A DNA stretch of 64,000 bases from Dictyostelium discoideum (lineage: Eukaryota), in contig CM000153.2 in assembly GCA_000004695.1 (NCBI GenBank), positions 672,001 to 736,000 of the forward strand, read 5' to 3'. This document shows positions 1,782 to 45,205 of the stretch, piece by piece. The translations under genes and the position numbers were made by a program. Position 1 is the stretch's first letter. Every line of letters starts with the position of its first letter. The notes below the pieces were generated by a model that was given only the letters and a program-made list of their open reading frames with translations, ran no database searches and was not told the DNA's origin.

Positions 1782-6359
<4,578 letters not shown>

Positions 6360-11014: not shown

Positions 11015-12724
11015 TTAAAATTTACTGACAGATTTTTTATAAATTTTGGATAAAGCTAAATCCTCATCGTGGTCATAATATTCTTCACCATTGACACTTT
11101 CTAAATAAGATTCAAACACAGTGTCATATTCATAATTATCATAAACAAAACTGTGTTTTAATATTAATGTGATGGTTTCAATTGCACTTTCAAAATCTGT
11201 AATATCATTAAGAATGATTTCTTTTAATACTCTATCGAAATCTAATATAGCTTCGTCAACTTCATTAAAATTTTCCATAACACTCCATGCCAATTCAACT
11301 TGTTTTTCTCTTTTAACTTGCTCATTTACATTTTGATTTTTTCCTTCTTCTCCTTCCTCTTCTTCTACTTCTACTTCTTCTTCTTTTTCTTCCTCTTCAT
11401 TTTCACTATTATTGTTGTTGTTGTTGTTGTTTTGATTGATATTATTAAGTAATGAATTTTTATGAATATAAAATTGATTGAATAGTTCTTCAGTGGTGTA
11501 TTCTTGTTCAGTTTGGTCCAGGCTATCAGTAATACCATAATTTTCAAAATCTTGTTTAACCTTTAATTTAGTTTGGATCATTTCTTTTAATTTCATTATA
11601 TCATTCTTTCTTTTTTCTTTTTTAGAACAACAAAGTGATTCTTTATTATTTTGATTATTAATTTCATCTTCTTCATCCTCATCTTCTTCTTCTTCCTCTC
11701 CTTTTTCTTTTTCTTCTTGGTTTGGTAATTGGGGATCTTGAATAAAAGTTTCAAAAATTGAATGAGTTATAAAGATAGCTTCATTATTTAAAATTTCATT
11801 TGAATTTTTAATTTGACCACCATATAGATTATATAATCTAATTTTCTTTGAATCATATTCAATTTGGTCATTTCCAATTATAGTTTTATTTAATAGTGAA
11901 ACGATTTCTTCCTTAAATTGGTGGAATTGAGAATTTACAAATAATTTAAATAATGATTTCTTTGATCCATTCAAACAAATTGTAACTGATAATGAATTAA
12001 CTAATTTATTATTATCAATATTATTATTACTATCATTATTATTATAATTCTTTATGCCATAAATTTCTCTATAAAATGATTTAACAATTGGAAATAAAAT
12101 TTTTTCATTTGGATTTGAAATTGGTGATAATAATTTTTTAAAAATTTTTTGAGTTGAAAATAAATTTGATTTCTCTTCAAGTGAATTTGCTTTTGAATTT
12201 ACTAAATTGAATAAAGATAAAACTAAAGTTTGAAGAGATTTCAAGTGATCTTTATTTGAAAATTTACCATCAGTAATTGTTGTAATGAATGAATTATAAA
12301 TATGAGAAACCACTGAATCACCACAATGAAATGAACCATGAGTTAAGAATGTCTCTAAAAATTTAATTTCGAAATCATTAGTTTTCGTTGAGAAAATTTC
12401 TAAAAAACTAACAACACCATTTTTTAATGTACAATTAGTCACGGTGGTTTTGGAATGTTTTAAAAAATCTTCACCACAAACATAACAAAATTGAAAATAA
12501 CATCTTGAACAAGTCACATGATTACAACCACCATTCTTTTCAATTGGATATTTACATCTTTTACAAATTGTTGTATTATTTATAATCCATGAATAATTTA
12601 ATAGCTCATTATATAAATCTACACTTTTATTACATGCTGATGGCCAATGTAATCCAGGTTGTTTACAATATAAACAAAATATATGGTTATCATTACATTG
12701 AACATATGGTGAATAATAACAACA

Positions 12725-12757
<33 letters not shown>

Positions 12758-14194
12758 TCTATTATTATTTCTATAATTATTATTATTATCTCTATCAAGT
12801 AATAATAATCTATTACAATTTAATTCTGGACATTTAAATGTATTTGGTCTAGAATAAATTACATCTTTAATAAAATTATTTAAACTCTTTTTTAAATAAA
12901 TTTGATTGTTTTCTTTTTTACCATTATTTTCAATTAAGATTGTTTCGATGGTAACTTCATCGATACAATTATTTAAACATTGAGTTTGTGGACACTTTAT
13001 TTGATTCATTGCACCATTACCATCTTGAATTGAAATTTTGAAATAATTATTCATACAATCTTTACAAAATCTATGACCACATATTAATTCAATCATCATT
13101 TCATCTTTTGGTGAATATTCACAATAACAAATTGAACATTCAATATCAACAATTGGGTCTTCCTCTTGATATTGTAATGAATTAAATTTAACTAATGAAA
13201 TATCTTTAACACGATGTGCACAACTAAATGATTTAATATTTAATAAATTCTTTTCTTTATCTTTTAAAATTCCAATGATTTGTCTTTGTTTCCATTGATT
13301 TTGAAATAATAATTTTCTAGATAACGATATTGGTATATCATAATAAGTTGAAACTTTTGAAATACTTGAATAACATTCATCCAATAATTTATTTCTAGTT
13401 ACTGTTTTACAATTTTTAAAATCTTGAAATAAATCATTTGAAAGTTTTCCATATTTATTAATTGGTTTTTTATTATTTTTATTATTATCTTCATCTTCAT
13501 CAATAAAATTTATTAAATTAGATTTATAATAATTTTCTAAATATTCTACTATCTCTATAACATTTTCTTTATTTTCAATTAAATGAAAGAGTTCTAAACT
13601 TTTCATAAATAAATTCAGTTCACTATTTGTATCATTTTTCAATTCATCATTTTCAACTACAATTTCAATTTTAAATCCTTTAATTGATGATGATTCTTCA
13701 ATAAAGTATACCCATATTCTTGATGGATTATTTATTTCTGAAATTAATACTTTACAACGATATGGATATGATTCTCCAATTATTAAAAATGTTTTTAATT
13801 TATTATTAGGTGATTCCATTATTGCTGCTGCTGTTGTTGTAGATGGTTCTCTATTATTATTATTGTTATTTTGTAAAGGAGGAGGAGAAGTATATGTTAT
13901 TAATTTTGTAATCACATTATTATAAAATAAATTTTGATTTTCATTTGTATGACTAAATAATTTTAAATAATTTAATTGTGATTTCTTTAAGAATTCAGAT
14001 TTTTCTAAAATTTCTTGAGCATATTCTTGTGATTTTGTTAATAGTTTATTTGTTTTCTCATCTTCTGGATCTTCATCTGATAATGTTGAAATTTTAAAAT
14101 TAATTATTTGGTTATTGTATGTCTTTTTTAAAGATTTAATTCTACAGCCATCGTCTGTGAATACTCTAATATATGATTTTAATGATACATCCAA
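11015..14194 (-). CDS. RBR (RING-between-RING, Ariadne-type) E3 ubiquitin ligase, 1059 aa, with acidic and Asn-rich tails.
   Basis: RING1 is CSICYCEY...CGHRFCKDCMNNYF...CPQTQC. An IBR follows (...FKCPELNCNRLL...CLYCKQPGLHWPSAC) and then RING2 (ICKRCKYPIEKNGGCNHVTCSRCYFQFCYVCGEDF). The ORF is uninterrupted. Confidence 0.8.
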
Positions 14195-14335
14195 TTTAAA
14201 TCTATTTAATAATAATCCTAAAAATCCTATAAACGATAATGTTTCTTGTATAATTAAAACACAACTTTCTTTTTCAAATTCATTCTATATAAAATAAATA
14301 AATTAATATATAAAATAAATAAATAAATAAAATAA

Positions 14336-14386
<51 letters not shown>

Positions 14387-14884
14387 CCTTGTGATAAAAA
14401 ATTGTAAATCTTTTTCGGTTATCAGGATTTTCTACAAGCACATATAAATCAGCTTCATTCTTTGCTGAACATGAATGTTTCATTTAATCTTGTTTTAAAA
14501 AAATAATGGTATAATAAAATATAAAAATATATTAATTCTATAAAAAAAAAAAAGAAAAATTTCAATTTAAATTGGTCTGTTAAAAATATTTTTTGGGAAT
14601 TTTCTAAAAAAAAAAAAAAAAAAAAAAGTGAGATTTACATTTTATTTTTTGATATTAAAATTGATCAATTATTTCTTTGAATTTTAAAAATATTTAAAAA
14701 TAAATAAAAGTAAAGAAAATTTATTCAAAAAAAAAAAATATATAATTCAATAGTTTTTTTTTTTTTTTTTTTTTATTTAAAAAATTAAAATGAAAAATCA
14801 CTTTGTCTATTATATTTATTTTTTATATTTTTTTTAATTATATTTAATTTATATAGGTTCATAAACTATAAGTCAGGTGCAGAT

Positions 14885-14925
<41 letters not shown>

Positions 14926-15596
14926 ACAATAAAAAAAAAAAATTATTGTATAATAAATACTCATAAATAATCAAATCTAAAAATGATAATTTTTACCATA
15001 AAAAAAAAAAAAAAACATACAAAATACAATAGTTTTAATAAAAAATAAAAACTTGTTGTAGAAAATAATAAATAATTGGAATATATTAAAGAATTAATTT
15101 AATATTAACACAAATGAAAATAGTAACTAAATTGAAATCAATTTATTATTTTTTTTATTTATAAATTGTTGAAAAAAAATATAAAAAATAAAAAACAATG
15201 TCACCCATGCAAACCCAAAACACCTTTTTTTATAAACCTAAATTATTATTATTCAAATTTTTTTTTTTTTAAAATGTGTAAATAAGTTTTACTTTTTTAA
15301 ATTTTTTTTTTTTTTTTTTTTAATTACACTTAAAAAAATATATTTTCTATACTTAATAAGAAAAATATTAAAAATATGGGAGTATGTTTATTAGAGAAGA
15401 TGAATAAGTGATACTCAAATAATAATGTTGGGAAATTACTAGATATATCAGTAATAAGAGGAACAATGAACAAGATTCATTATTTTGATGAAGTAAAAAT
15501 TATTTTATAGACAATCTGAAGTACTAGTTGTTACAATATAATATTAACAAAATATAATTTTAAAATTATATTATGATTCATTAGTTTTTACAAGAG

Positions 15597-15980
15597 ATGT
15601 TTGCAGAGGAAAAATTGGATGGTGTTATAATAAAGAGAAATCTTAGCAAAGAAGAGTTTGAAAATTTTGAGAACAAATATGAGGAATTTCAATTTGAATA
15701 TGAACCAAATGATGGCTTGTTTATTATTTTTCAAAATTTGACAACAGGTTGTGGACATTCAACATGTGTATCTGCTCTTGCCACTATTTTCTTTGTTGCT
15801 ATCAGTCATTATCAAGGAGGTGATGTAATAGATCAATATTTTAAAAGTTCAATTCGTCTTGAAGGTGATGTAATACAAATTTTTTTATTGCCATATAAAA
15901 AATCATGTGAGCATAAAAAAGAAGGTCTGCCAAATTTTAAAAAATTTAAAACAAATTTAATTCAAAAAAAAATAAATTAA
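15597..15980 (+). CDS. Hypothetical 127-aa protein (MFAEEKLDGVIIKRNLSKEEFENF...). The gene structure is uncertain and it could be a partial or relic gene.
   Basis: A non-low-complexity ORF with ordinary codon composition. No recognisable domain. No convincing upstream exon was found. Confidence 0.3.
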   Translation: MFAEEKLDGVIIKRNLSKEEFENFENKYEEFQFEYEPNDGLFIIFQNLTTGCGHSTCVSALATIFFVAISHYQGGDVIDQYFKSSIRLEGDVIQIFLLPYKKSCEHKKEGLPNFKKFKTNLIQKKIN

Positions 15981-16704
15981 AATAAAAAAAAAAAATTAAA
16001 AAAAATTAAAAAAAAATAAATTTAAATAAAAAAAAAAAAAATTGCTCCACAAGAAAAAAATACAAAAACAAATGAATATATATTTATTTATTCATTATTA
16101 TTATTATTATTTATTATTTTGAGATTGTTTTCTTTTTAATTTTCCTAATTAGGATTTTTTTATTTTTTTATTATTTTTTTATTTTTTTTTTGATTTGGGA
16201 GATAATAATAAATTGAAAAATTGGTCTATCTTTGCCGATTAATTAAAGTAGATTTAAGAAATGCAAAAAAGAAAAATAAAATAAAATAAAACAAAACAAA
16301 ATAAAATAAATTAAAAGAGATAGACAATATTGAAAATAAATAAAAAAAAAAAAAGATAATTCTAAAGTGGACCAAAATCGTTTATTTTATTTTTATTTTT
16401 ATTTTAAATTTGATTAGGCAGTAAATAAAATTTATCTCACTCAACATTTAGTTTTTGAATAGTGAAATCACAAGTGACAAAACCATTTCTATGGTTGTAT
16501 TTGAATACGATTGAGGTGTATCTAACCAATCTCTAATAAAAATAAAATAAAATAAAATGAATGAAAATGAAAAAAAAAAAAAAAAATGGAAATTTTCAAG
16601 AGCCCACATGGGTGTTAATTTTTTTTTTTTTTTTTTTATTGATTAATGCACCCTCTTGAAAAATTAATGTTAAAACAAAAATAGTAATTAAGAAATAAAA
16701 AGAA

Positions 16705-18094
16705 ATGGAAAAGGAATTATTTTTTAAAGTTTTTAATAATATTTTTTTAAAATCAAAAATTAAATATTATTTAAAAAAAGAATTTAGAAATGGAGTTTAT
16801 GAATGGGAAGAATTGAAATCAACAGAATGGTTAATAGAGAATGGTTATTTAAATGTATTAAAAGAGAAAATTAAAAGAAAAGAAGAATTATCATTCTATT
16901 GTAATGGTAAAAAAAAAGCAAGACTTTTAACAAATCTAAAATATGATAATAATCCAAGTGGTGATACAATTAAAACAAATAGCATTCCAAAAGCAATAAT
17001 CTATTATAAGAATTCAATATTTAACATTTTTCAAGAAAATACTCTTGAGAATTTTAATTTCTTTTCAACATTATTTAATAATTATAAGTCAAGTTTTGGT
17101 TATATGTTAACAGAATCGTTGAAAGATATAATTAGAATTTCAATTGAATATGATAATGTTTCATCAATTAGAGTAATACTTGAACAATATAATTTCAACA
17201 TTGACTCAAATATTGATACATTAATAGTACACTCGATTGATATTGGTTCATTTCAAATTTCAAATTATTTATTATCAATTAAAAAATTAAATAATAATAA
17301 TAATAATAATAATGAATTTAATTTATCAGATTATCATATTCAAAGGGTTTGGGAAAGAGCTATAAGCTTTAAAAATATTGAAGATGAAATTGAATTGGTA
17401 ATTAAAAAAATTGAATATTTAGCAATTGAATTAAATATTAAACCACCAATAATATTAAATGGTGTAGAATTAATATTTTTAAAATTAAATATTGAGATTT
17501 ATAGACAACCATTATCAATTGTAATTGGATTATGTAAAATTTGTATATTATTAAAAGACCATTTAAAACCATACTTGGACCCATCATCATTAATAAAAAC
17601 TAAACATTTTAATAATGTTTATTTCTTTCCAACAGATTTAAAATTAAACTTTATATCAGATTTAGATCATTTCTCAACAATTTTAAAAATTGAAGAATTA
17701 AATAAAATCATTGAAAATTTTAATAAAGAGAAATTAAAAATTCCAATTTTTAAATTTAATAAATCAAATGAAAGTATAAGAATATTAATTAATATATTAA
17801 TTAAATTATCACCAACAAGTAAATTAAATTCAAATTATGTATTTTATAAAGTTAAATTTCAAAATCAATTATTAAATCAAAAATATCTATTACTATGTGA
17901 TATGAATGATTATCATGAAGAAACTGGTCAATTAATAATTAATGATCAAATTGAATGGGATATTAGTAATTTCAATTGGTCAAATAGTCATTTACCTTAT
18001 AAATCATTTTATTCAAGTCAAAGTTTTCCAAAAGATGATAAAAAATTGGTTTTTAAATATTTTAAAGATTTAAAACCACCATATATAATTGGTG

Positions 18095-18171
<77 letters not shown>

Positions 18172-19281
18172 CCAATTTATTTTCAAAAAGATTTAACAGA
18201 ATTTTTATTATTTTCAATTAAAAATGATAATTTTGAATCACTTCAATTATTATGTGAAAGATTTAAACCAAATTTTCAAGAATTTTCAAGACCTTCACCA
18301 TACTTTTTTATGAAATCAATTGAATCATTTGATTTAGTTTATAGTTTAGATATTTTAAAAAGTAGAGCATTAATGGAAATTAAATATAATTATAAATTAG
18401 CAAGCCATTTTAAAGAAAATTATAGAGATGATTATTATAATCAATTAGAGAATCATTTACCTGAAAATTCAATTCATTCACCTTATGAATTTAATCTATC
18501 AAAATTTCAATTCATTTTTGAAAATTGGTTAGATTTTAAAAAGTATCATAGTAATTTCCTTGAATTAATTTCAGATACAATTAAACATGGTTCACCATTA
18601 TCATTAAATGATTATATTGGATTTATTAAAATGTTTCCAATTGGATATAATAATAATAATCCACCAATTTCTAATAGAAATAATATCGATCAACAACAAT
18701 GTGAACAAATTTATTATTGTTTAAAAAATAGAGCAGATTTTCAATTTTACATTGTTTTAATTTTACCTTCAATATTATTAGTAGAGTATTTATCAACCGA
18801 TTCAGAAAAATTCATTTATAGACATTTCATTCATACAACTTTATTATTAAAAACAAATTATAATTTAATTTTAAATGAAATTTCAAATAGAGGTGATACT
18901 AATTTTATTTCAACTTTTTTAACAATACTAAATAATAATAATAATAATAATAATAATAGTTTTCAAATAGAATTAAAAAAGGATATGTTTATTAATGATT
19001 TATTATTTAACTCTATAAAGCATGGTAGTTTCATGAAATTTATAACATTTTTATCAAGTTTAAATTATTCTTTAAATTTAAAAGATCCTAATGAATTTAT
19101 TATTGAAGGAATAAACTCAAATCAAATTAATGTTGTAATTTACTTTTTAAAATCAAAAGGATCAATAGATTTTTCTTCTTTATTAGCTAAATTCAATAAC
19201 AATAACAATTATAATAACTATTGTTTTTCACTTAATTATTTATTAAGTAATATTAATAATTTATTAGAAATAAAAAATTAA
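16705..19281 (+). CDS. Intronless Asn-rich hypothetical protein (858 aa). Its N-terminus is paralogous to the 1782-6359 protein.
   Basis: A long ORF. Its N-terminal motif MEKELFFKVFNNIFLKSKIKYYLKKEF matches EILFWNVFHNKFLRCLIIHHI of the first large ORF. Poly-N tracts are present. Confidence 0.7.
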
Positions 19282-19391
19282 ATTAATTAATTACTAAATT
19301 ATCCCTACATTGGTAATAAATTTTTTTTATTTTTTTTATATGTGTGTTGTCAGTAGTTATAAAACAAATATAAATTGTTTATAAATGTTTT

Positions 19392-20231
19392 TTAACCTTG
19401 GTGTTGTTTTACTAATTTGGCGAGTTTTTTCTTTAAATCTTTATCATTGGATACACAAATTAATTCTTGAATATCAGCAATAAAGTCATGTAATTTATTA
19501 CCTTTTGGAGCCAAATCTACATAGATTGTATTATTTTTACCCATTAAACCATATAATAGACCCATTTCGAAAATCAAATTAAATCTTGGGTAATAATGTT
19601 CTTCATATTCAGGGTCGTGGGATTCTAGATCATAAGTGACAAATACAAGGCAAAAATCACATCCATCAATTATTTTTTCAAAGTTTTTAATGTCGGTTTT
19701 ACCATTCTTACTTTCCAATAATACTATTGAAATGTTCATATCTTCGAGCATTTTAGAATACTTTTCTTGAATTTCATTATTACCGTTAACTACTAAAGCT
19801 TTTAGTTTTTTAGGTGTCTGTTGAGTGGTGTTTGCACCATCTGCATCTTTTTTATCTACTTTTTTTGTTTCTAAATCTGTAGCTTTTGAGAAAGAATTTT
19901 CAATATTATTATAATTCTTTTGGTGATTCTTTTGAATTATTTATTTTTTTTAAAAAAAAAAAAAAAATTAATAAATGATTTATTTATCTATATTAGTTTA
20001 TATTAAACATACCAATTCCATTAAAAGATTCTTAATTTTTACACGTTCTTCTTCTTGACAACCTTGAATTTGGATATTATTAGTTGAGTGGTAGAAAGTA
20101 ATAGTTAATTTTTTTGCACCTTCTTTTATTTTAAAATAATCTTTTGTTGGTTCATCTTCGAAAATTGTATACTTTGTGCCCAATTCTTTATTAATGCATT
20201 GAACTGCTTCCAATCTTGTTATAGCAATCAT
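19392..20231 (-). CDS. Two-exon gene encoding a 251-aa protein. It has a small N-terminal domain of about 73 aa and a C-terminal TIR-like domain of the bacterial COG4271/PF10137 type (Cap12/PycTIR/STING-associated). Exons 20231..20013 and 19928..19392; the intron is 20012..19929.
   Basis: Exon 1 (MIAITRLEAVQ...KNLLMEL) ends at a GTATGT donor. Exon 2 starts after ...AAAAG in phase 0 and runs 179 codons to the stop. Exon 2 carries the characteristic motifs KALVVNGNN, TDIKNFEKI, DFCLVFVTYD and YPRFNLIFEMGLLYGLMGKNNTIYV, which correspond to vFIvHGhd / TiIEKfE / fAvvLlTPDD / RARQNVifElGyFiGkLGRerV of the COG4271 TIR-like family. Confidence 0.6.
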
Positions 20232-20577
20232 TATTATTATAATAGAAATTATATATAATTATTTTTAAACTAAAAATTGATTTCATTTTAAAATACTATT
20301 AAAATGAATTTAAGTTATGGGTTTTGAATTAATAATATTAAATCTTAATATAATAATTTATTGGACTTAAAAAAATAGGTTTTTTGTTCCAAAAAAAATA
20401 AAAAAAATTTAAAAAAAAAAAAATTAAAAAATTTTTTGGATCTCAGATTTAAAAAAAAAAAAAAAAAAAAAGAAATTAGATTGAAAATTGGTTTGAATTT
20501 AATTGAAAACTCAAAATAATTTTTTAATGGTTCTTTTTTCAAATTTAATACTGTAAGTTGAATTTTGTGGGAGAATA

Positions 20578-20800
<223 letters not shown>

Positions 20801-20806
20801 ATATTT

Positions 20807-20837
<31 letters not shown>

Positions 20838-22039
20838 AATTATAGAAAATTAAATAAATTAAAATTTTTTATCAGTATTTTTTAAATCAATTTTTTATTT
20901 TGGAAATAATTAAAAGTGATTTTTTTAGGGGACTTGTTTAATCGGGAAAAAAAAAATTTTAATTTAAATTTTTTTTTTTTTTTTTTTTTTTTGTAAGAAA
21001 GAGTGTTCTCGAACCAACTCAATTACATTTCTCGAATTACAAATCGATTCGGTATCAATGAAGCTTCTTGTTCCCAAAGAAAAGAAGAAAAGTGTCATCA
21101 AATCTGATTAGGAATTTTTTACTTTTTTTTGGTTTCTCCAAATCTGTTCAGATCTTTTAATCAAAAAATTCAATTTTATTTTTAGTATAAATAAGAAGTC
21201 TTTTTAAAAATAGGTTGTTTTATTTCAATGTGGGTTTTTTTTTAATAGATATTTTGTTTATTAGTTTATTTAGTATTAATTGGTACTAATCCAATTGCCA
21301 GAGTATCAAAGGGTTTTATTCTTTTTTTATAAGATAAATCTTTTAATTCTCGGGCATTGTTGATAGGTTGATTGTATATTAAACAGCTGTTTCACTAAAT
21401 AATTTATTTTTTTAATAAATAAAAAACTTTTATATACACTAAACACAGAATGAAATATGGAAATTTTTTAATTTTCAACCAAGGTAAATTTTAAAATACT
21501 TTTAATCTTATAATAATAATAATATTTAATAATGTTAATTTATATTATAGTTTGATTGTTATAAATTAAAATTAAAAAATCGAAGTTAATTAAATTTTGC
21601 TGATATCCCAAACAAAATCAGAAACATAAACATAACAAAACAAAAAAAAAAAATAAAACAAAACAAAATAAAATAAAACAAAATAAAACAAAATAAAACA
21701 AAATAAAATTTATAAAATTAAAAATAAAAAATTAAACAAATAAACAAAAAAAAAAAAAAACTCTATTCCTTTTTTTCATTTTTATTTTTTTTTTATTTTC
21801 TTTTTTTTTTTTTTTTTTTTTTTAATTCTTAATTTTTTCAATTATTTATATTTTTTTAAATTATTTATTTGATAATTTTTCATAACGAGTTTTCGAATTT
21901 AATATAATTTGAATAATTGTTGTTGTTTTAATTTACATTCATTTGATAATAACACACTTAATATTATTAATTAATCAATTCAATTTGTGTTTATAAACAG
22001 ATAAAATAAATCATATATTAAAAATTATTATAATCAAAA

Positions 22040-23560
22040 TAAATATGATAAAAACTATTTAATTTCTAATAGTAATGAATATGCAGATGGTTATACTTAT
22101 AATAAAGAGTTTTCAATTATAAAAATTAAAGAATCAATATTCAATCATTATTTTAAATTCAATTTATTTTTACATTATATTACAATTGATGATTTTAAAG
22201 AAATTAAAATGAAAATAATCAATTAGTTTATAAAAGAATTGTAGTTGATGTAGATGTTTATGTTGATACTGATGAATCAGGTTATGATGACAATAGTAGT
22301 ATTTTATTTAAAATTCATGAATATATATCAAATGAAAATTCGGAAATCATATCAAATTTATTTAAAATATTAGAATTAAATGATTTTATAATAGATGGTT
22401 ATTATCCATACTCTGAATATGATGAAAGTAAGAAATGCGGTGAATTATATTTTAATAATTTATCAATTGCTGGTCATGATATAGAAGAAGGTGAAGATAG
22501 AGAATCATTAAAGATATTGAAATTTTTCAAAGGTAAAAATATAATTTATGATGGATCAGATGTTGCTAGTGATTTTCCATCACATGTCAATTATTCAGCA
22601 ATATTAGACCTAGATAATTCAGGTCAACAAGTTGAATCAATTAAAGTACAAAATGGGCATAGATATGCTGATTTTGTTGAAGCACATCATTTAATCAAAG
22701 TTAATCAATTTGAAAATTTACATTCAATTACAATACCAATTAATTCATTTCAAATATTATCAAACTTATCGAAAGAAATGGGATATTTTAGTTTTTATGG
22801 AATTAATTCAGATTTTGGTAATTCAGATAATATGAAATTGGAATTAAATCAAATGATCAATTCATTCATTAACAGTAAATCTTCAAAGAATTTAAAAATA
22901 ACATCCGTTAATACAACAGAAGATCCAATTGATTATTATGATTATTATGATGGTGGCAATCTTCAAACTTTTATTAATAAAATAAATGAAAGTAAAGAAT
23001 CATTTTCAAATTCATTTAAACCATTATTTTCAGAGAATTGAATTAGATTGTATGGGCTTATTAAAAATCAATACATTTTCAAATTTATTTAATAACAAAT
23101 CAATTAAATATTTATATTTATATGATAGTGATTCATTGTTTACTCATCAAAACCAACTAGTGGTGGTGGTGTTGGTGGTGTTGGTAAGCAAGTCAAGAAA
23201 TTATTTCAACTAATCAATATTTATTTGATAATATATTTTCATCACCATTAACATCAATTAGACATTATAAAATTAATTTCCAAGAATCTAATGAATTAAA
23301 ATTAATATTTAATTTAATATTAAATAACATTTTTAAATTACAATTATATTCATTAATATTTGTACTTAACGAAAACGAATTAGTTGATGAATTTGTTAAA
23401 CAGTTTAAAAATTTAATTAATAATATTTCAACTCAACAACAATGATCAATTAACATAAATTTAAAAGAAATTATAATTAAAATATATGATTATGATTATG
23501 ATGATGACCCTTTCTATTACCTTTTTGAAGAATTGAGTAATATTTCAAAATAATAATAAA
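22040..23560 (+). pseudogene. Decayed gene. Several ORF fragments on different plus-strand frames are interrupted by stops and frameshifts (e.g. NEYADGYTYNKEFSII..., VDVDVYVDTDESGYDD...KPLFSEN*, LKINTFSNLFNNKSIKYLYLYDS..., HYKINFQESNELKLIFNL...).
   Basis: Coding-like composition runs for about 1.5 kb. Frame continuity is repeatedly broken without usable GT...AG introns at the breaks, and there is no single start codon. Confidence 0.4.
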
Positions 23561-23654
23561 GTAAAAATAATAAATTAAAAAATAAAAATAAACCCAAATC
23601 ATTACACTTTGATATTTTATAAATAACTCTTTTTTATTTCATTTACAGAAAAGC

Positions 23655-23773
23655 ATGAAAAGAAAGGAATTTTTTGTTAATTTATTTTATTTTATTTATT
23701 TTAAAAAAAAAAAAAAATTCCATATGAAAAGAAAGGAATTTTCACATATTATATATGAAAAGAAAGGAATTTT
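23655..23773 (+). promoter_or_regulatory. Three direct copies of the 19-bp element ATGAAAAGAAAGGAATTTT (23655-23673, 23724-23742, 23755-23773), about 270 bp upstream of the 24044 ORF.
   Basis: Exact triple direct repeat within 120 bp of otherwise simple AT-rich intergenic DNA. Confidence 0.4.
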
Positions 23774-24043
23774 TTTTTTTTTTTTTTGAAATTTTTTTTT
23801 TAAGTAAGGAACATTTAAACAAAAAAATAATAAAATTTAGTATCCAGGGTAATAATTGTTTGGAAGATATATTTAATAAAAAAAAAAGAAATTTTTTAGA
23901 AACATCTAGATGGGTGTTAATTTCGAGGTTTGGTTGAAAAAAAAAAAATAAAAAAATGAGAAAAATAAAAAAAAAAAAATAAAAAATAAATTCGCTGTGC
24001 ATAATTAAAAAAATAAAAAATAAAAATAAAAATAGAAATAAAA

Positions 24044-24790
24044 ATGATAACAAATACAAATATTAATGTAAAACCACCAATTAATCCTCAATCAATTTAT
24101 GATTTATTAAATAATTTTATTGAACAGATTAATATTACATATGATGAAATTTTAATATTACAAGAATATAAAGGATTAATTACAAAATTAGTTACATTAA
24201 CATCTTCAATTAAATATTATTTTAATGATTATGAAATTGATAAATTTCAAATTTTACCAACAAAAGATATATTATTCGATAAAGTGAAATTATTTATTGA
24301 ATCATTAAAACAATCAATTGAACAACAAATTAATTCCTTTAAAAAAGTTATAATAATAACATCACCATCAACAATAGCATCATCATCATCATCATCGACA
24401 ACTACAACAACTACTACTACAACAACTACAACAACAGGTGTACTATCAGAAATTGAAAATTTAAAATCAAATATTAATCATAATTTACATAATAGTCAAA
24501 CACAATTATTTATATTTCAATTAATGATTATACAATCATTAATAAATTTATTAAAATCAATTGAAATATTAATTCAAAATAAAAAGAATAAAGAAATAAA
24601 TGTAAAACAAATTAAAGATTCTATTAAACAATTATTAATTCTATTAAATAGCTATTACCAAAATAAACAATTTAAAAATAAAGATGAAATCATTGAAAAA
24701 TTAAGAAATTTAAATTTTCAATTTTCAACTGATTTATTTATATCTCGTTTAATAAATGATATTATTTATTTTACAAATATAAATAAATAA
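24044..24790 (+). CDS. Hypothetical 248-aa protein with a Ser/Thr-rich middle (poly-T).
   Basis: A clean ORF with no recognisable domain. Confidence 0.55.
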   Translation: MITNTNINVKPPINPQSIYDLLNNFIEQINITYDEILILQEYKGLITKLVTLTSSIKYYFNDYEIDKFQILPTKDILFDKVKLFIESLKQSIEQQINSFKKVIIITSPSTIASSSSSSTTTTTTTTTTTTTGVLSEIENLKSNINHNLHNSQTQLFIFQLMIIQSLINLLKSIEILIQNKKNKEINVKQIKDSIKQLLILLNSYYQNKQFKNKDEIIEKLRNLNFQFSTDLFISRLINDIIYFTNINK

Positions 24791-25658
24791 TTAAAATAAA
24801 TTAAAAAAAATAAAAAAAAAAAAAAGATAAACATAAATTTATTTATTTATTTAATCCATTAGTTAATCATTTATTTACTTTTTTTTTAAATGTGTTTGGA
24901 TCATACCATCCATTTCATTTTTTTATTTTTCCTAAATTATTAAATACATAAATAAATAAATAAATAAAATAATAATAAATAAATAAATAAATAATAAAAA
25001 ATAATAAATAAAAAATAAAAAATAAAAATAAAAATAAAAAATATATATGTCAAAGTTTGGTATCTATATTTAAAATAAATTAATTTCAATCACAATCATA
25101 GCCAATTGTTGCTAATTTTTTTTTTTTTTTTTTTCACCAAATTCGATATATTTTTAAAATAAAAAAAATAAAAAAAAGAAAAAAAAAATAAAAAATAAAA
25201 ATTAATGAAATAAAATTATTTTTTTCCCATTGTGGAAAGTATTACACAAAATACAAACACCCCTCTTACTCTGTTGTGGGTTATTATTTTTTAAAATAAA
25301 AAAAGAAATGAAATTATTTTTTATTTTTTTAAATTAAATTTTTTAAATTAAATTTTTTTTTTTAATTTTTTTTTTTTTTTTTTTGTATTTTTTTTTTTTT
25401 GTCTTTGGGTATAAATTTTATTTTTCTTTATATTTCCACATAAAATATTGTAATAATTTCAATCATTTTTTTTATTTTTTATTTTTTTTTTATTTTTTTT
25501 TTTTATTTTTTTATATCACTACAACCAGCCAACCAACCACCCATCGGACAATAATTAATTAATTAAAACAGTAATATTGATCATCCATACCCACCACCAC
25601 CAACTACCCACTACCACTCTCATCCATATTACATACAACACAATAATAAAATAAAGAA

Positions 25659-26518
25659 ATGAGTCGTTCAACATCTTCAACTAAAGCTACTAAAGAAATG
25701 GTTGCCTATTGTTTCGATTCTTTAATATTCCATTTCGAAAATAAACCAATTTATAAACCAAAATTTTCAAATGAATCATCGTATGTACACCAAAATATTA
25801 AATAATATATATATATATAACATATTAATATTTTAAATAAATACTAATATGTATATATATATATATTAAAAAAATATTTGTATGTACATATGCATAAAAT
25901 TTTTATTATTATTTCCCTTTATTTTTTTTTTTTTTAAAAAAAAAAAAATAAATAATTTTAAAAAAAAAATAAAAAAAATAAAAAAATAAAAAAAAATAAA
26001 AAAATAAAAAATAAAAAAGACCATTATTTGTAACATGGAAAATAGATAATAAAAATTATGATGAACCAATTTTAAGAGGGTGTATAGGTACATTTGCAGA
26101 GAAGAATTTAGTTGAAGGATTACATAAATTTGCATTAACTAGTGCATTAAAGGATTCAAGATTCTCTGCTATCACAAAAAAAGAATTAACAAAGTTACAT
26201 TGTGCCGTATCATTGTTGGTAAAATTTGAAACTGTAGATTCAGTTTGGGATTGGGAAATTGGAACCCATGGAATTTGGATAGAATTTACTGATCCAAATA
26301 CAAATCAATCTTCAAATTCAACTTATTTACCAGATGTAATACCAGAACAAGAGTGGACAAAAGAAGAGGCAATAAGATCATTAATTAAAAAGGCTGGTTA
26401 CAATGGAAAAGTTGATGATAATTTCTTTTCCCTAATTAAATTAACTCGTTATCAATCTTCAAAAGATTCATTATCATATTCTGAATTTTTAGAATATAAA
26501 AAAGCTACATCATTATAA
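25659..26518 (+). CDS. AMMECR1-family protein (206 aa). Exons 25659-25780 and 26020-26518; the intron is 25781-26019 (GTATGT...AAAAAG).
   Basis: Exon 1 is MSRSTSSTKATKEMVAYCFDSLIFHFENKPIYKPKFSNESS. Exon 2 is PLFVTWKI...ILRGCIGTF...LTSALKDSRFSAITKKEL...DWEIGTHGIWIEF...STYLPDVIPEQEWTKEEAI..LIKKAGY...KLTRYQS. This is co-linear with human AMMECR1 (YPLFVTWKI..LRGCIGTF..ALKDSRFPP..DWEVGVHGIRIEF..ATYLPEVA..QGW). Confidence 0.85.
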
Positions 26519-26545
26519 TTGAAATAATAATTAATAATAATTATT

Positions 26546-26587
<42 letters not shown>

Positions 26588-27252
26588 TAATAATAATATC
26601 TTAAAACAGCAACAGTTTTAAAAAAAAAAAAAAAGAAAGCATTAAAAATTCTTGTAAAATAAATGTAAATAACTTCTTCTTCTATATTGATTCAATTCCT
26701 TCCTTTATCTCAACAAAATAATATGCAAAAACAAAAATAAATAAATAAAAAAAAAGAATGTAAAAAAAAAAAAAAAAAAAGTTATTTATAACCTTTAAAA
26801 AGTTCTTTTTTTCTTTTTTGTTTTTTTTTTATAGAATTCAAATTTCCAAAAATTAAATTTCATTCTTTTTTTTAGCAATCGAATTTGAAGATATTATTTT
26901 TGAGTCATGGAATTTTGATTCGTAATGTAAAAAAATATTCCAAGATATTTTATTGATCAAAATTAAAAAAAAAAAAAGCAAAAATAAAAAAAATAAAAAT
27001 AAAAATAAAAAAAAATAATAAAAAAAAAAAAAAAAAAAAAATGTCGTTTTTTTTTTTTTGTTTTAAAAAAAAAAATTTTTTTTTTTTTTTTTTTTTTTTT
27101 TGTGTGTTAATAAAAATACCAATATTAAAATAATAAATTTTTTATATATATTCAATTTGAATAGTCATAGTAATAAAATAAAATAAAATTTTTTTTTTTT
27201 TTAAAAAAAAAAAAATCTAACACAACAAAACATATAAATATATATATATAAA

Positions 27253-28496: not shown

Positions 28497-28536
<40 letters not shown>

Positions 28537-43639: not shown

Positions 43640-44583
43640 TTAATTTTTTTCAAATTCAACAACATTTATTTGACTAATTCCTTTTTTCATTTGATACATT
43701 TTTTCATCGGCAGATTTAATAATTGAAGAAACTTTAGTTTCAGATTTTTTAAAGACAACACCACCATATGAAAAGAAAATTGGAAGAATGGTTGAACTTG
43801 ATTCACCGTCGACAGTGAAGCTACTTGAAGAGACGTTTTTAGTGAATTGTGAAATGAAATGATCAGCATGATCAACATTTTCAACACCTCTTTTAATGAT
43901 TAAAAATTCATCACCACTTAATCGAATTGGAAGAACATTGGAATCCTTTTGTGCTTTGAATTGATTGGAAACATGTTTTAAGACCAAGTCACCGACTTCA
44001 TGACCATAGGTATCATTGATTGATTTGAATTTATTTAAATCCATGAAATAGAGTGCACAAAGATCAGTTTCAGATTTGTTACAAAACTTTTGAATCTTTT
44101 CATCGAGACGATAACGATTTGGTAAACCAGTTAATGGGTCATGAGCCAAAATGTATTTCAATTTCTTTAATTCAGATACTTCTTCACTAATATCCAAAAC
44201 CAATCCTCTAAATACTGATTTATTACATTTTCCAGAGAAACGATATTTCTTGGTACCATCAATTGATTTCAATACGATTCCTTTGGAATTTTGAATATCT
44301 TGTTCATCATTATTACTATTATTATTTAATGCTAATACAAAATCATTTGGATCAATATTTAATGATTCACAAAATGATTGGATACTAAAATATTTATCAG
44401 ATGTTGTTTGTGTTTGTTCAATATTATTATTATTATTATTTGAATTATTATTATTATTATTATTAAATTCTTCGGTAGAATTATTATTATTATTATTTAC
44501 AATTTTAACACTTTTATTTAAAATATTATTATTATTTAAAATATTAATATTATTACTACTACTATTATTATTATTATTACTAC

Positions 44584-44614
<31 letters not shown>

Positions 44615-45001
44615 TATATTATTATTATTATTATTTTCATTATTATTTGTATTTGTATTTGTATTTGTATTTGTATTTGTATTTAAATATTGAGTTAAAT
44701 TATTTGATGAATTTGATTTTGTCAAAACTGGATTGATGGTATTTACAACTTTTTGAGCAAAATTAATTTCTAATACAATAAGAGTTGGTGTATAATTTAA
44801 AATTTGTTTGAAAGTGTTTGTTTCGGATAACATTTTTCTTTCTCTTTGAATAAAAGTATATATTAAAACAACTACAATTAAAAGGAATAACATATTATCT
44901 TTTGTAATATACAAATTACTATTATTATTCATTTGATTATATTGCATATAATTATTATTATAATTATAATTATTATTATTATTATTATTATTTATATAGT
45001 A

Positions 45002-45057
<56 letters not shown>

Positions 45058-45205
45058 CATGATTATATGTAGTGGAATCAATTGTATCATTAACTTTATT
45101 ATTCGAAATTTGTGATTTATATAAAGTTGAAGTTGGATTACCACTATTAATATATGAATAAATATTTAATGTTGATAAAAATAATTCTTGAATTGATTTT
45201 TCCAT
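43640..45205 (-). CDS. dgcA: GGDEF-domain diguanylate cyclase (521 aa), probably Dictyostelium dgcA. It has an N-terminal Asn-rich region and one TM segment.
   Basis: GGDEF-domain motifs are DPLTGLPNRYRLDEKI, ALYFMDLNKFKSINDTYGHEVGDLVLKHV, the active-site loop IRLSGDEFLII (an SGDEF variant of GG[DE]EF), and SADEKMYQMK. D. discoideum is known to make c-di-GMP through a single GGDEF protein, DgcA. Confidence 0.7.

What the first reader, a model, noticed from the sequence alone, without database searches (positions are those of the whole stretch)
19392..20231. Amoeba gene with a bacterial-immunity-type TIR-like (COG4271/PF10137, Cap12/PycTIR-like) domain
Exon 2 of a canonical two-exon Dictyostelium gene encodes a domain whose motif order and spacing match the prokaryotic TIR-like nucleotide-binding family. 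The motifs are KALVVNGNN...TDIKNFEKI...DFCLVFVTYDLE...YPRFNLIFEMGLLYGLMGKNNTIYV...PKGNKL. In bacteria this family occurs as the NADase or nucleotide-hydrolase effector of CBASS/Pycsar and TIR-STING systems. It is fused here to an unrecognised N-terminal module of about 73 aa (MIAITRLEAVQ...TITFYHSTNNIQIQG...), which could be a ligand sensor. TIR/STING-like effectors are signalling and immune NADases. Dictyostelium also uses c-di-GMP as a developmental signal, and a diguanylate cyclase gene lies 24 kb away in this window. A horizontally acquired or anciently shared cyclic-nucleotide or NAD-based effector in an amoeba would be new biology.
Basis: partly seen in the sequence, partly recalled or inferred. 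Interest (0 to 1): 0.75.

Follow-up and report, generated by a model that had tools for sequence, protein, structure and literature searches.

The report
Dictyostelium tirB, a bacterial-type TIR gene
This is the already named amoeba gene tirB, a bacterial-type TIR immune gene that a 2026 preprint shows came from bacteria; the one new point here is that its small N-terminal domain is also bacterial in type.

Summary
Window 19392..20231 (minus strand) is a two-exon gene for a 251-aa protein. Its C-terminal half matches Pfam PF10137 (CAP12/Pycsar TIR) at E=3.9e-12.

It is not new. The protein is identical to D. discoideum AX4 DDB_G0283429, which is tirB. TirB has been cited as a TIR protein since 2007. 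Culbertson et al. (bioRxiv 2026, PMC13142454) studied it in depth. They showed that TirB/C/D derive from prokaryotic CAP12/Pycsar TIRs by horizontal transfer. They validated the tirB intron. They found no NADase activity for TirB, whereas TirC was active. They also made knockouts.

I add three points.
- The 73-aa exon-1 domain, which the preprint calls "partial KH-like" and attributes to shuffling within amoebae, is homologous to the N-terminal domain of a widespread bacterial and prophage two-domain family (PADLOC candidate PDC-S35). The bacterial HMM gives E about 5e-8, hhalign gives 96%, and TirD matches independently.
- TirB has lost several residues that are invariant in the bacterial family and kept in TirC, but it keeps the catalytic Glu.
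- tirB evolves almost neutrally (dN/dS 0.8-1.0), far faster than its neighbours.

There is no STING, SAVED or cNMP-binding sensor, and nothing links the gene functionally to dgcA, 23 kb away.

The parts
19392..20231 (-). tirB (DDB_G0283429) coding region from ATG to TAA. Two exons, 251-aa product.
   Evidence: Sequence and translation. Exact match to XP_639069.1/Q54R22. Named tirB in Supp. Table 2 of PMC13142454.
20013..20231 (-). Exon 1 (aa 1-73), which is the whole N-terminal alpha/beta domain. Predicted order: helix 6-17, strands 22-26, 32-37, 40-47 and 52-56, then a helix from 60. It is homologous to the N-domain of bacterial PDC-S35 (PDLC05003-type) proteins.
   Evidence: AF2 single-sequence model, pLDDT 82.8. 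HMM of 119 bacterial N-domains scores it 19.0 bits, E=5e-8, with 0 of 20,000 shuffles reaching 15 bits. hhalign probability 96.3%, E=1.6e-9, against 0.5% for the reversed control.
20061..20105 (-). Core N-domain motif TITFYHSTNNIQIQG (aa 43-57). It matches the bacterial consensus I.NW..STGTIQ.QG. Q56 and G57 correspond to the near-invariant bacterial Q and G.
   Evidence: Alignments.
19929..20012 (-). Intron, 84 nt, GT..AG, 8% GC. It lies exactly at the boundary between the N-domain and the linker. The position is the same in the orthologues in L001 and L003, and in paralogue tirD.
   Evidence: orthologue introns of 93 and 90 nt after codon 73. (tirD exon 1 ends ...LEGL|GTATGT). RNA-seq and cDNA PCR validation reported in PMC13142454.
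19806..19928 (-). Low-complexity linker (aa 74-114). Predicted disordered and the fastest-evolving segment.
   Evidence: pLDDT below 50. 0 synonymous against 13 non-synonymous differences between AX4 and L001.
19395..19805 (-). TIR-like domain (aa 115-251). The Pfam PF10137 match covers aa 123-226, which is window 19470-19781.
19566..19568 (-). GAA codon for Glu194 in the FEMG motif. This is the conserved TIR catalytic glutamate, equivalent to E162 of TirC and to the E of the RDNVVFEFG motif in SfSTING.
   Evidence: Alignment columns. PDB alignment. The preprint states that the catalytic Glu is conserved across TirBCD.

Best explanation
The locus is tirB of Dictyostelium discoideum AX4. It is a domesticated descendant of a prokaryotic anti-phage-type TIR protein.

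The 251-aa cytosolic protein has three parts:
- a 73-aa N-terminal alpha/beta domain, which is exon 1;
- a disordered linker of about 40 aa;
- a C-terminal PF10137 (CAP12/Pycsar-type) TIR domain.

Shown here or in the cited preprint:
- The TIR domain belongs to PF10137.
- TirB's TIR is a paralogue of the TIR of TirC, an active amoeba NADase.
- The N-terminal domain is homologous to the N-terminal domain of a large family of 220-260-aa bacterial and prophage proteins. These proteins have the same two-domain order and correspond to PADLOC candidate single-gene defence system PDC-S35, models PDLC05003 and 05006.
- TirB therefore has the complete architecture of that bacterial family, not just a captured TIR.

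Inferred mechanism: in the bacterial proteins the N-domain is the sensor or regulator and the TIR is an oligomerisation-activated NAD+ hydrolase. In TirB the Arg/Asn/Glu/Gly core of the active site survives (R188, N190, E194, G196). Several residues invariant in the bacterial family are gone, although the active paralogue TirC keeps them. The gene evolves almost neutrally. Purified TirB has no NADase activity.

My best guess is that TirB is a latent TIR that needs a trigger. It would fire, or act as an adaptor, only when its N-domain engages a ligand, possibly a nucleic acid. I think this more likely than a constitutive enzyme. A catalytically dead regulatory paralogue is nearly as likely.
For: Identity:
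- Exact match to DDB_G0283429.
- Named tirB, with identical protein and CDS, in the preprint supplement.

TIR domain:
- PF10137 E=3.9e-12.
- PADLOC PDC-S35 E=4e-13.
- The catalytic Glu and the R-x-N motif align with the bacterial family and with SfSTING, Cap12 and PycTIR.
- TirB's TIR is closest to TirC-like P0006 (62.5 bits). The best bacterial score is 45.4 bits.
- TirB and TirC share the derived YPR(F/L)N motif in place of bacterial RARQN.

N-domain homology:
- The bacterial family covers 97-100% of query P0037 and comes from many phyla.
- Family members match PDLC05003 end to end, for example 1-245 of 245.
- The best of 20,000 composition-matched shuffles scored 14.1 bits.
- Among 357 six-frame ORFs from the window and L001, only tirB exon 1 scores.
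- TirD exon 1 matches independently at 20.2 bits, E=2e-8.
- hhalign gives 96.3% probability and E=1.6e-9 over 65 columns. The reversed control gives 0.5%.
- The reciprocal amoeba HMM hits 26 of 120 family members and gives no false hits among 637 bacterial ORFs.

Latent or degenerate enzyme:
- Motif changes in TirB are HGHD to NGNN, TIIE to TDIK, TPDD to TYD-, and PSD..G to IAD..E. TirC keeps these motifs.
- dN/dS is 1.02 against L001 and 0.77 against L003. Neighbouring genes give 0.04-0.54.
- TirB and TirB(K113-end) were inactive on NAD+ in vitro, while TirC was active (preprint).

Bacterial context:
- Family genes sit in prophages, temperate phages and variable islands as single genes.
Against: - The TIR-only similarity of TirB and TirC is no higher to the N-domain-bearing bacterial proteins sampled here than to PDC-S35 subtypes with unrelated helical N-termini. 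The donor is therefore unresolved, as is whether the N-domain arrived in the same transfer as the TIR.
[quoted passage not shown] This makes an ancestral N-domain less parsimonious unless TirC lost it early.
- No fold search gave a significant match for the N-domain, so its biochemical role is a guess.
- My full-length AF2 model was single-sequence and of low confidence across the TIR domain.
- PDC-S35 is only a candidate defence system. I found no experimental paper on it.
- Mixing TirB with TirC did not change TirC activity, and tirB knockouts showed no phenotype of their own (preprint). Neither result supports a simple regulator role.
Confidence: 0.75

Rival explanations
1. TirB is a catalytically dead pseudo-enzyme. 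On this view it is a TIR scaffold or adaptor, or a decoy, that works only through protein-protein or nucleic-acid binding, as animal adaptor TIRs do.
For: - There was no NADase activity for full-length or TIR-only TirB, even with a crowding agent (preprint).
- Many residues invariant in the bacterial family are lost, while the active TirC keeps them.
- The D. cf. discoideum orthologue P0005 has even deleted the YYPRFN (R-x-N) segment next to the catalytic Glu.
- dN/dS in the TIR domain is 0.55-0.65.
Against: - The catalytic Glu194 and G196 are kept in all three orthologues, and R188 and N190 in two of them.
- The HGHD motif is specific to the PDC-S35 type. It is not aligned in the active NADase SfSTING, so losing it need not abolish catalysis.
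- The ORF and the intron position are kept over dS of about 0.4.
- Many TIR enzymes are inactive until oligomerised by a trigger (established knowledge of TIR-STING and TIR-SAVED).
Confidence: 0.35
2. One reading: TirB is a cyclic-nucleotide-gated effector like TIR-STING, Cap12 or PycTIR. It would be possibly tuned to the amoeba's own c-di-GMP made by DgcA, with the N-terminal module acting as the cyclic-nucleotide sensor.
For: - The TIR belongs to the same Pfam family as Cap12 and PycTIR.
- The preprint places SfSTING near TirBCD in its tree.
- A GGDEF ORF lies in the same window at 43640..45205.
Against: - There is no STING, SAVED, CARF or cNMP-binding domain by Pfam, NCBIfam or PADLOC.
- The N-domain belongs to a different bacterial family whose members are stand-alone genes with no adjacent cyclase.
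- PDC-S35 models score far better than the CBASS TIR effector or PycTIR models.
- A distance of 23 kb in a eukaryotic genome is not linkage evidence.
- The preprint found no bacterial operon remnants near tirB.
Confidence: 0.04
3. The preprint's reading of the N-terminus: only the TIR was transferred. On this view the N-terminal domain is a partial KH-like module recruited by domain shuffling inside amoebae, and its resemblance to the bacterial N-domain is chance or convergence.
For: - A few bacterial family members give weak KH-type Pfam hits.
- TIR-only similarity does not tie TirB/C to the N-domain-bearing bacterial subgroup.
- tirC, the oldest paralogue, lacks the domain.
Against: - The profile evidence is strong and reciprocal.
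- In bacteria the domain sits in the same N-terminal position, ahead of the same TIR family and at similar total length.
- Two divergent paralogues, TirB and TirD, each match the bacterial profile independently. TirD's STGTIQTQ is nearly the bacterial consensus.
- PADLOC model PDLC05003 aligns TirB 8-247 to model positions 9-226 of 245.
Confidence: 0.15
4. tirB is a decaying duplicate on its way to becoming a pseudogene and has no function.
For: - dN/dS is about 1 between AX4 and L001.
- The gene is restricted to the D. discoideum clade, with one reported loss.
- There is no biochemical activity and no knockout phenotype of its own.
Against: - The ORF is intact, with the same start, splice sites and stop region, in three lineages separated by dS of up to about 0.4.
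- The TIR domain's dN/dS is below 1 (0.55-0.65).
- The N-domain core motif and the catalytic Glu are conserved.
- Expression is developmentally regulated and the transcript is correctly spliced (preprint).
Confidence: 0.08

Closest known systems
Dictyostelium discoideum TirB (tirB, DDB_G0283429, UniProt Q54R22)
   Same: It is identical in protein, CDS and intron.
   Different: Nothing differs. This is the gene itself.
Dictyostelium TirC and TirD, the TirBCD family of Culbertson et al. 2026 (PMC13142454)
   Same: - All are paralogous PF10137 TIR domains.
- They share the derived YPR(F/L)N-x-x-F-E-x-G motif.
- TirD shares the N-domain and the intron position with TirB.
   Different: - TirC has an N-terminal hydrophobic helix instead of the N-domain. 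It keeps the HGH, TIIE, PD and PSD..G motifs and is a potent, spontaneously oligomerising NADase.
- TirB lacks those motifs and was inactive.
PADLOC-DB candidate defence system PDC-S35, subtype models PDLC05003 and 05006. These are bacterial and prophage 'TIR domain-containing / nucleotide-binding proteins' of 220-260 aa, for example from Bartonella, Achromobacter, Burkholderia, Salmonella and E. coli temperate phages.
   Same: - The two-domain order and overall size are the same.
- The N-domain is homologous, with an STGTIQ.QG-type motif.
- The TIR is PF10137 with the same catalytic core.
   Different: - TirB has an intron, a longer low-complexity linker and AT-rich codon usage.
- TirB has lost many invariant residues of the family.
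- The bacterial proteins are intronless single genes in mobile elements.
- The defence role of PDC-S35 is itself only a candidate.
TIR-STING (SfSTING, PDB 7UN8), Cap12 TIR-SAVED and Pycsar PycTIR (PDB 8JSJ)
   Same: They share the Pfam TIR family and the R-x-N-V-x-F-E-x-G catalytic motif. They are the mechanistic precedent for oligomerisation-activated NAD+ hydrolysis.
   Different: - Those proteins carry a cyclic-nucleotide sensor (STING, SAVED or cNMP-binding) and sit next to a cyclase. TirB has neither.
- The similarity is weaker than to PDC-S35.
N-terminal TBP-like domains of the RnlA/LsoA toxin (Pfam PF15935) and of RNase HIII (PF11858/DUF3378). This is a lead only.
   Same: Weak signals recur across several searches:
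- PF15935 at E=0.016 on TirB aa 25-59, and in 4 bacterial family members.
- DUF3378 in 3 members.
- RNase HIII chains 3VN5 and 4PY5 hit at their N-domains, E about 1.
- A phage RnlA/LsoA-NTD protein at probability 0.92.
   Different: No single hit is significant. Other small alpha/beta folds (IntS9 CTD, BPI half-barrel, KA1, BamC) score as well or better. Membership is unproven.

Membership tests
Pfam PF10137 CAP12/Pycsar-effector TIR domain | Profile match above the curated gathering score | tested here: met
   46.7 bits against a cut-off of 24.7, E=3.9e-12, aa 123-226 matching profile positions 9-109 of 119.
Pfam PF10137 CAP12/Pycsar-effector TIR domain | Conserved catalytic glutamate in the (R)-x-N-V-x-F-E-x-G motif | tested here: met
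   R188, N190, E194 and G196 align with the invariant R, N, E and G of 120 bacterial homologues and with SfSTING RDNVVFEFG.
Pfam PF10137 CAP12/Pycsar-effector TIR domain | Flavodoxin-like alternating beta/alpha TIR fold | tested here: inconclusive
   The single-sequence AF2 model gives a beta-alpha-beta-alpha-beta-alpha-beta-alpha order, but pLDDT is below 50 over aa 80-221. The preprint reports an AlphaFold TIR fold with a beta-hairpin like SfSTING.
Pfam PF10137 CAP12/Pycsar-effector TIR domain | NAD+ hydrolase activity | not testable with these tools
   Published test: TirB and TirB(K113-end) were inactive in vitro, with or without PEG, while TirC was active (PMC13142454).
Cyclic-nucleotide-gated TIR effectors (CBASS Cap12 TIR-SAVED, TIR-STING, Pycsar PycTIR) | Fused cyclic-(oligo)nucleotide sensor domain (STING, SAVED or cNMP-binding) | tested here: not met
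   No such domain appears in the Pfam, NCBIfam or PADLOC scans. The only other domain is the PDC-S35-type N-domain.
Cyclic-nucleotide-gated TIR effectors (CBASS Cap12 TIR-SAVED, TIR-STING, Pycsar PycTIR) | Adjacent nucleotide cyclase (CD-NTase or PycC) in one operon | tested here: not met
   The neighbours are eukaryotic genes of unknown function. The only cyclase, a GGDEF ORF, is 23.4 kb away. The preprint found no bacterial genes at the locus.
PADLOC PDC-S35 (PDLC05003/05006 subtype) two-domain proteins | Full-length profile match | tested here: met
   PDLC05003 E=1.7e-11, aa 8-247 matching model positions 9-226 of 245. PDLC05005 E=4.2e-13. Bona fide members match PDLC05003 at 1e-60 to 1e-105, so TirB is a divergent member.
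PADLOC PDC-S35 (PDLC05003/05006 subtype) two-domain proteins | N-terminal alpha/beta domain with the G.I.NW..STGTIQ.QG motif ahead of the TIR | tested here: met
   HMM at 19.0 bits, E=5e-8, with 0 of 20,000 shuffles reaching 15 bits. hhalign 96.3%. TirB has LTITFYHSTNNIQIQG.
PADLOC PDC-S35 (PDLC05003/05006 subtype) two-domain proteins | Family-invariant TIR residues (F-V-H-G-H-D, T-I-I-E, T-P-D-D, R-A-R-Q-N, P-S-D..G) | tested here: not met
   TirB has L-V-V-N-G-N-N, T-D-I-K, T-Y-D-gap, Y-P-R-F-N and I-A-D..E. It keeps only T151, D173, R188, N190, E194, G196 and D225.
PADLOC PDC-S35 (PDLC05003/05006 subtype) two-domain proteins | Anti-phage defence function | not testable with these tools
   It is only a candidate system. 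No paper in the library mentions PDC-S35. Members lie in prophages, temperate phages and islands.
RnlA-NTD / RNase HIII N-terminal (TBP-like) domain superfamily, for the N-domain | Significant sequence or structure match to PF15935 / PF11858 or their solved structures | tested here: inconclusive

The most novel reading that the evidence does not exclude
TirB and TirD did not merely capture a bacterial TIR. They preserve the whole sensor-plus-effector architecture of a phage or prophage-borne bacterial candidate defence protein (PDC-S35). On this reading the N-terminal domain was co-transferred from prokaryotes, not assembled by domain shuffling in amoebae as the 2026 preprint infers. The N-domain would be the missing trigger-sensing module, possibly an RnlA-NTD / RNase HIII-N-like nucleic-acid binder. 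Its ligand would explain why purified TirB and TirD look inactive.
Probability: 0.45. Interest if true: 0.5.

Novelty: already known. Interest (0 to 1): 0.3.

Why it matters
The headline is a bacterial-immunity TIR in an amoeba. It matters for how eukaryotic innate immunity was seeded from prokaryotic defence systems, but it has already been found, named and tested experimentally.

What is left is narrower. If the N-terminal domain of TirB and TirD is the same module that precedes the TIR in hundreds of bacterial and prophage proteins, two things follow.
1. The transfer brought a sensor-effector unit, not a bare effector. That changes the domestication story.
2. The bacterial family (PDC-S35) and the amoeba proteins become mutually informative. 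Finding the ligand of one N-domain predicts the trigger of the other, and it gives a concrete experiment for the unexplained inactivity of TirB and TirD.

Tried and rejected
1. Most of TirB's top bacterial phmmer hits are PDC-S35 subtypes PDLC05004/05/07, which have helical N-termini that do not match the TirB N-domain. The N-domain homology is specific to the PDLC05003/05006 subtype. It was found through hit P0037.
2. The word-indexed protein search with the N-domain alignment returned nothing.
3. Sequence searches of the PDB with the amoeba or combined N-domain profiles gave nothing significant.
5. The search for related loci with the N-domain alignment failed because the alignment was too diverse. 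I could not ask whether the N-domain is fused to other effectors in bacteria.
6. I tried to place the amoeba TIRs by TIR-only scores. TirB's TIR is closest to TirC, then to bacterial proteins without the N-domain. TirC's best bacterial matches (P0048 and P0069, 106 bits) also lack it. The donor lineage is unresolved, as is the choice between one transfer and two. I did not build a tree, because the domain is short, TirB sits on a long branch, and no ML software was available.
7. The TirD full-length protein was not retrievable from the held supplement text. Only its exon 1 could be tested.
8. The full-length single-sequence AF2 model was too poor over the TIR domain to use for a fold search.
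9. The c-di-GMP / dgcA linkage idea was rejected. There is no sensor domain, the gene is 23 kb away, and there is no operon logic in this genome.
10. The 1870-aa hit P0007 (E=5e-11, six stretches) is a bacterial Ca-binding repeat protein. I treat it as an artefact of the repeats and did not pursue it.
Full report
**Observation.** On the minus strand of the window an ATG at 20231 opens a 73-codon exon (20231..20013). An 84-nt GT..AG intron follows (20012..19929, 8% GC, against 27% GC in the exons). A second exon runs to a TAA at 19394..19392. The Pfam scan gives PF10137 (CAP12/Pycsar effector TIR) at E=3.9e-12, 46.7 bits against a cut-off of 24.7, over aa 123-226. The only other hits are sub-threshold: DUF2325, and RnlA_toxin on aa 25-59 at E=0.016. 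NCBIfam finds nothing. PADLOC finds the candidate system PDC-S35 (best E=4.2e-13). One of its models, PDLC05003, aligns aa 8-247. Weaker hits go to the CBASS TIR effector and PycTIR models.

**Identity.** The 251-aa sequence is an exact match to XP_639069.1 / EAL65699.1 / UniProt Q54R22, which is DDB_G0283429 of D. discoideum AX4. [quoted passage not shown] A full-text search for Dictyostelium plus PF10137 found Culbertson et al., bioRxiv 2026 (PMC13142454). Its Supp. Table 2 lists DDB_G0283429 as tirB with exactly this protein and this exon join. The spliced CDS shown there (399 nt) is identical to mine. The primers the authors used to validate the intron and to genotype the knockout all map inside the window: ECO98 at 20206-20232 (-), ECO100 at 19816 (+), plus NG64 and NG65. 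Reviews have cited TirA and TirB as the two known cytosolic TIR proteins of Dictyostelium since Chen et al. 2007.

The preprint makes these points about TirB and its paralogues:
- TirB, TirC and TirD are paralogues nested within prokaryotic CAP12/Pycsar TIRs, which implies horizontal transfer.
[quoted passage not shown] - tirB is up-regulated in development.
- TirC is a potent NADase, but TirB, TirD and TirB(K113-end) showed no NADase activity, with or without a crowding agent.
- Mixing TirB with TirC changes nothing.
- Knockouts of tirB, tirBC and tirBCD were made.
- The TirB N-terminus "resembled a partial KH domain". [quoted passage not shown]

**The TIR domain.** A full HMMER scan of 1.84 billion representatives with TirB found only 92 proteins at E<=1e-3:
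- TirB orthologues from the D. discoideum complex. P0005 is 59% identical. P0001, is 80% identical.
- A TirC-like amoeba protein (P0006).
- Bacterial proteins at E of 5e-7 or weaker.

Most of these bacterial hits are strong PDC-S35 members (1e-50 to 1e-80) rather than CBASS or Pycsar effectors. TirC-like P0006 scores 136 bits on PDC-S35 models, 63 on the CBASS TIR effector and 54 on PycTIR. TirB scores 47.6, 27.6 and 14.7 on the same three. The nearest prokaryotic relatives are thus short stand-alone proteins, not cyclic-nucleotide-gated effectors.

I aligned TirB with 120 bacterial homologues. TirB keeps T151, D173, R188, N190, E194 (the catalytic Glu, codon 19568-19566), G196 and D225. The other residues invariant in the bacterial family are replaced:

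| Bacterial motif | TirB |
|---|---|
| F-V-H-G-H-D | L-V-V-N-G-N-N |
| T-I-I-E | T-D-I-K |
| T-P-D-D | T-Y-D-gap |
| P-S-D..G | I-A-D..E |

TirC-like P0006 keeps HGHN, TIIE, PDN and PSD..G. TirB and TirC share YPR(F/L)N in place of bacterial RARQN, a derived character that supports a single amoeba TIR lineage. TirB's TIR is also closest to TirC (62.5 bits, against at most 45.4 for any bacterial protein). The solved relatives of the bacterial family are SfSTING (7UN8, E=1.4e-8), another Cap12 (9LMQ) and PycTIR (8JSJ). They align only from the "ivLlTpDD" strand onward. The HGHD motif is therefore a feature of the PDC-S35 type, not a universal catalytic requirement. My full-length structure model was single-sequence and unreliable over the TIR (pLDDT below 50), so for the fold I rely on the profile match and on the preprint.

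**The N-terminal domain: what is new here.** Exon 1 folds confidently even without an alignment (pLDDT 82.8). The order is helix 6-17, four strands and a long C-terminal helix.

One weak hit of the deep search, P0037 (228 aa), matched TirB in two separate stretches. One of these was ITINFFKSTGNIQIQGN against TirB LTITFYHSTNNIQIQGC. P0037 lies on a 39-kb contig of prokaryotic gene density, with a phage sheath-initiator gene and an IS1595 transposase immediately upstream.

Searching with P0037 found 4,435 PF10137 proteins. The 119 best other than P0037 itself are 219-275 aa, and most cover 95-100% of P0037, so they include its N-terminal domain. The named ones come from Bartonella, Achromobacter, Burkholderia, Salmonella, Providencia, Acidocella, Parasegetibacter, Bacteroidales and a mollicute. 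Eight of them were scanned against PADLOC. All have PDLC05003 as their best model, and four match it over essentially its full length, for example 1-245 of 245 at E about 1e-100. Their N-domains share the consensus KF.G..EeLk....G..G.W......qFkT..G.I.NW..STGTIQ.QG.

The tests of homology were these:
- An HMM of the 119 bacterial N-domains, with P0037 left out, scores the TirB N-domain at 19.0 bits (E=5e-8 for a single comparison). The two TirB orthologues score 18.3 and 17.8.
- Of 20,000 composition-matched shuffles the best scored 14.1 bits.
- Of 357 six-frame ORFs of this AT-rich window plus L001, only tirB exon 1 and its orthologue score (18.6 and 18.1 bits). The next best is 5.9.
- TirD exon 1, taken from the preprint's supplement, is MKKIFITPESAYEHLKTIFSQVIFLNSNEQPNKIFFKILIDYQKITITLYLSTGTIQTQPKNIEIEKILEGL. 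It matches the bacterial profile independently at 20.2 bits (E=2e-8). It is followed by a GTATGT intron at the same position as in tirB.
- Profile-profile comparison of four amoeba sequences against the bacterial set gives 96.3% probability and E=1.6e-9 over 65 of 73 columns. The reversed-sequence control gives 0.5%.
- The reciprocal amoeba HMM finds 26 of 120 family members at E<0.01. It gives no false positives among 637 bacterial ORFs or among the TIR proteins that lack the domain.

I conclude, at about 85% confidence, that the TirB/TirD N-domain is homologous to the N-domain of PDLC05003-type bacterial proteins. TirB therefore has the full architecture of that family.

**What the N-domain is.** This remains open. 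Fold searches gave only generic small alpha/beta matches:
- Foldseek against the PDB: nothing below E=0.2, with RnlA at TM 0.5.
- BFVD: nothing below E=0.03, with an RnlA/LsoA-NTD phage protein at rank 6.

Sub-threshold sequence signals point repeatedly, though never significantly, to the N-domains of RnlA (PF15935) and RNase HIII (DUF3378; PDB 3VN5 and 4PY5, hit at their N-termini). From memory, those two are TBP-like nucleic-acid-binding or regulatory domains. I treat this as a lead only.

**Bacterial context.**
- The Salmonella member sits between phage replication genes (PDDEXK/DUF2800, Enc34 ssDNA-binding, Bro-N, DNA polymerase A, SNF2).
- Three E. coli temperate phages carry a 55%-identical copy annotated "TIR-like domain-containing protein".
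- The Achromobacter copy lies in a variable island near an ImmA/IrrE-type peptidase.

In each case it is a lone gene, as PADLOC's single-gene label implies. The defence role of PDC-S35 is a candidate assignment, and no paper in the library mentions it.

**Evolutionary rate.** The locus is syntenic in two other "D. discoideum" / "D. cf. discoideum" assemblies (L001 and L003), and the intron stays after codon 73 in both.

| Comparison | Gene or segment | dN/dS | dN |
|---|---|---|---|
| AX4 vs L001 | tirB, whole gene | 1.02 | 0.095 |
| AX4 vs L001 | N-domain | 1.9 (2 synonymous, 16 non-synonymous) | 0.096 |
| AX4 vs L001 | linker | 0 synonymous, 13 non-synonymous | 0.143 |
| AX4 vs L001 | TIR domain | 0.55 | 0.081 |
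| AX4 vs L001 | flanking genes | 0.04-0.54 | 0.003-0.046, plus one outlier of uncertain orthology at 0.15 |
| AX4 vs L003 | tirB, whole gene | 0.77 | 0.28 |
| AX4 vs L003 | flanking genes | 0.06-0.48 | 0.008-0.08 |

The L001 figures are and the L003 figures. The ORF is nevertheless intact in all three lineages. The counts are too small to separate relaxed constraint from positive selection.

**Mechanism.**
- Shown: the architecture, the ancestry of both domains, retention of the catalytic core and loss of other invariant residues, the fast evolution, and (from the preprint) the lack of in-vitro NADase activity.
- Inferred: by analogy with TIR-STING, TIR-SAVED and TirC, the TIRs of this family act when oligomerised. 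In the bacterial two-domain proteins the N-domain is the only candidate for the trigger-sensing or autoinhibitory part.

I therefore favour TirB as a latent, trigger-dependent TIR, at about 45%. A catalytically dead adaptor or regulator is close behind at about 35%. A decaying duplicate is unlikely (about 8%), and a cyclic-nucleotide-gated effector very unlikely (about 4%).

**Comparison and novelty.** The gene is TirB itself. It is a member of PF10137 and a divergent member of the PDC-S35 (PDLC05003) architecture. It is not a member of the CBASS, Pycsar or TIR-STING effector class, because it has no sensor domain and no cyclase partner. The GGDEF ORF at 43640..45205 is simply a distant neighbour.

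As submitted, the finding is already known. The residual novelty is the bacterial ancestry of the N-domain and what it implies for how the gene was acquired and how it might be triggered. Whether the N-domain came in the same transfer as the TIR is unresolved, because TIR-only similarity does not tie TirB/C to the N-domain-bearing subgroup sampled here.

Noticed in passing
window 43640..45205 (-): A 521-aa ORF with a GGDEF-type diguanylate cyclase signature (…LTGLPNRYRL…RLSGDEFLII…) and long poly-N tracts. It lies 23.4 kb from tirB, and I found no evidence of a functional link.
   Followed up: partly
L001 (GCA_054859385.1) and L003 (GCA_054859235.1) compared with window 12000-30000: Assemblies labelled 'Dictyostelium discoideum' and 'D. 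cf. discoideum' are syntenic with AX4 here. L001 is only about 89-91% identical in DNA. Synonymous divergence from AX4 is about 0.03-0.15 in L001 genes and up to about 0.3 in L003 genes. That is far more than expected within one species, so these look like cryptic sister lineages.
   Followed up: partly
L001 14505-17783 compared with window 14727-15876: L001 has two tandem genes of about 326 aa, and both align to a single stretch of the window at 76% and 90% identity. This is a copy-number difference next to the tirB neighbourhood.
   Followed up: no
L003 6001-6822 (protein P0005): The D. cf. discoideum TirB orthologue is 59% identical. It has a deletion that removes the YYPRFN segment (the R-x-N motif next to the catalytic Glu) and reads ...TYGGGKVEDYSKVFEMG.... 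It keeps the Glu and the N-domain motif, so active-site erosion has gone further in this lineage.
   Followed up: partly
tirD exon 1 (sequence from Supp. Table 2 of PMC13142454): TirD's N-domain reads ...ITITLYLSTGTIQTQP..., closer to the bacterial consensus than TirB's. Its first intron (GTATGT) falls at the same domain boundary as the tirB intron. This suggests that the N-domain and the intron predate the tirB/tirD split.
   Followed up: partly
protein P0052 (360 aa): A protein with dictyostelid-like composition. Its TIR is of the TirC type (AYPRLNVVFEFG). Its N-terminal region is about 200 aa, Cys-rich and N-rich, and starts with a hydrophobic leader. This would be another N-terminal variant of the amoeba TIR family. 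Its source organism was not looked up.
   Followed up: no
protein P0007 (1870 aa): A bacterial Ca-binding repeat protein of RTX/hemolysin type. It matched TirB aa 29-99 in six stretches at E=5e-11. This is probably a score inflated by its repeats rather than homology, but I did not explain it.
   Followed up: no
L004/L005 (Salmonella) 4477-5301; phage records ON470582.1, ON470588.1 and ON470579.1: The bacterial two-domain TIR gene is carried inside phage or prophage genomes. In Salmonella it lies between replication genes, and it is present in three E. coli temperate phages. A phage-borne copy is a plausible vehicle for transfer into a bacterivorous amoeba.
   Followed up: partly
window 20546..21101 (-): The upstream neighbour on the same strand has a very long (AAT)n / poly-Asn tract (about 20590-20840). 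It ends only about 315 bp before the tirB ATG, so the tirB promoter must lie in a very short, 14%-GC intergenic region.
   Followed up: no
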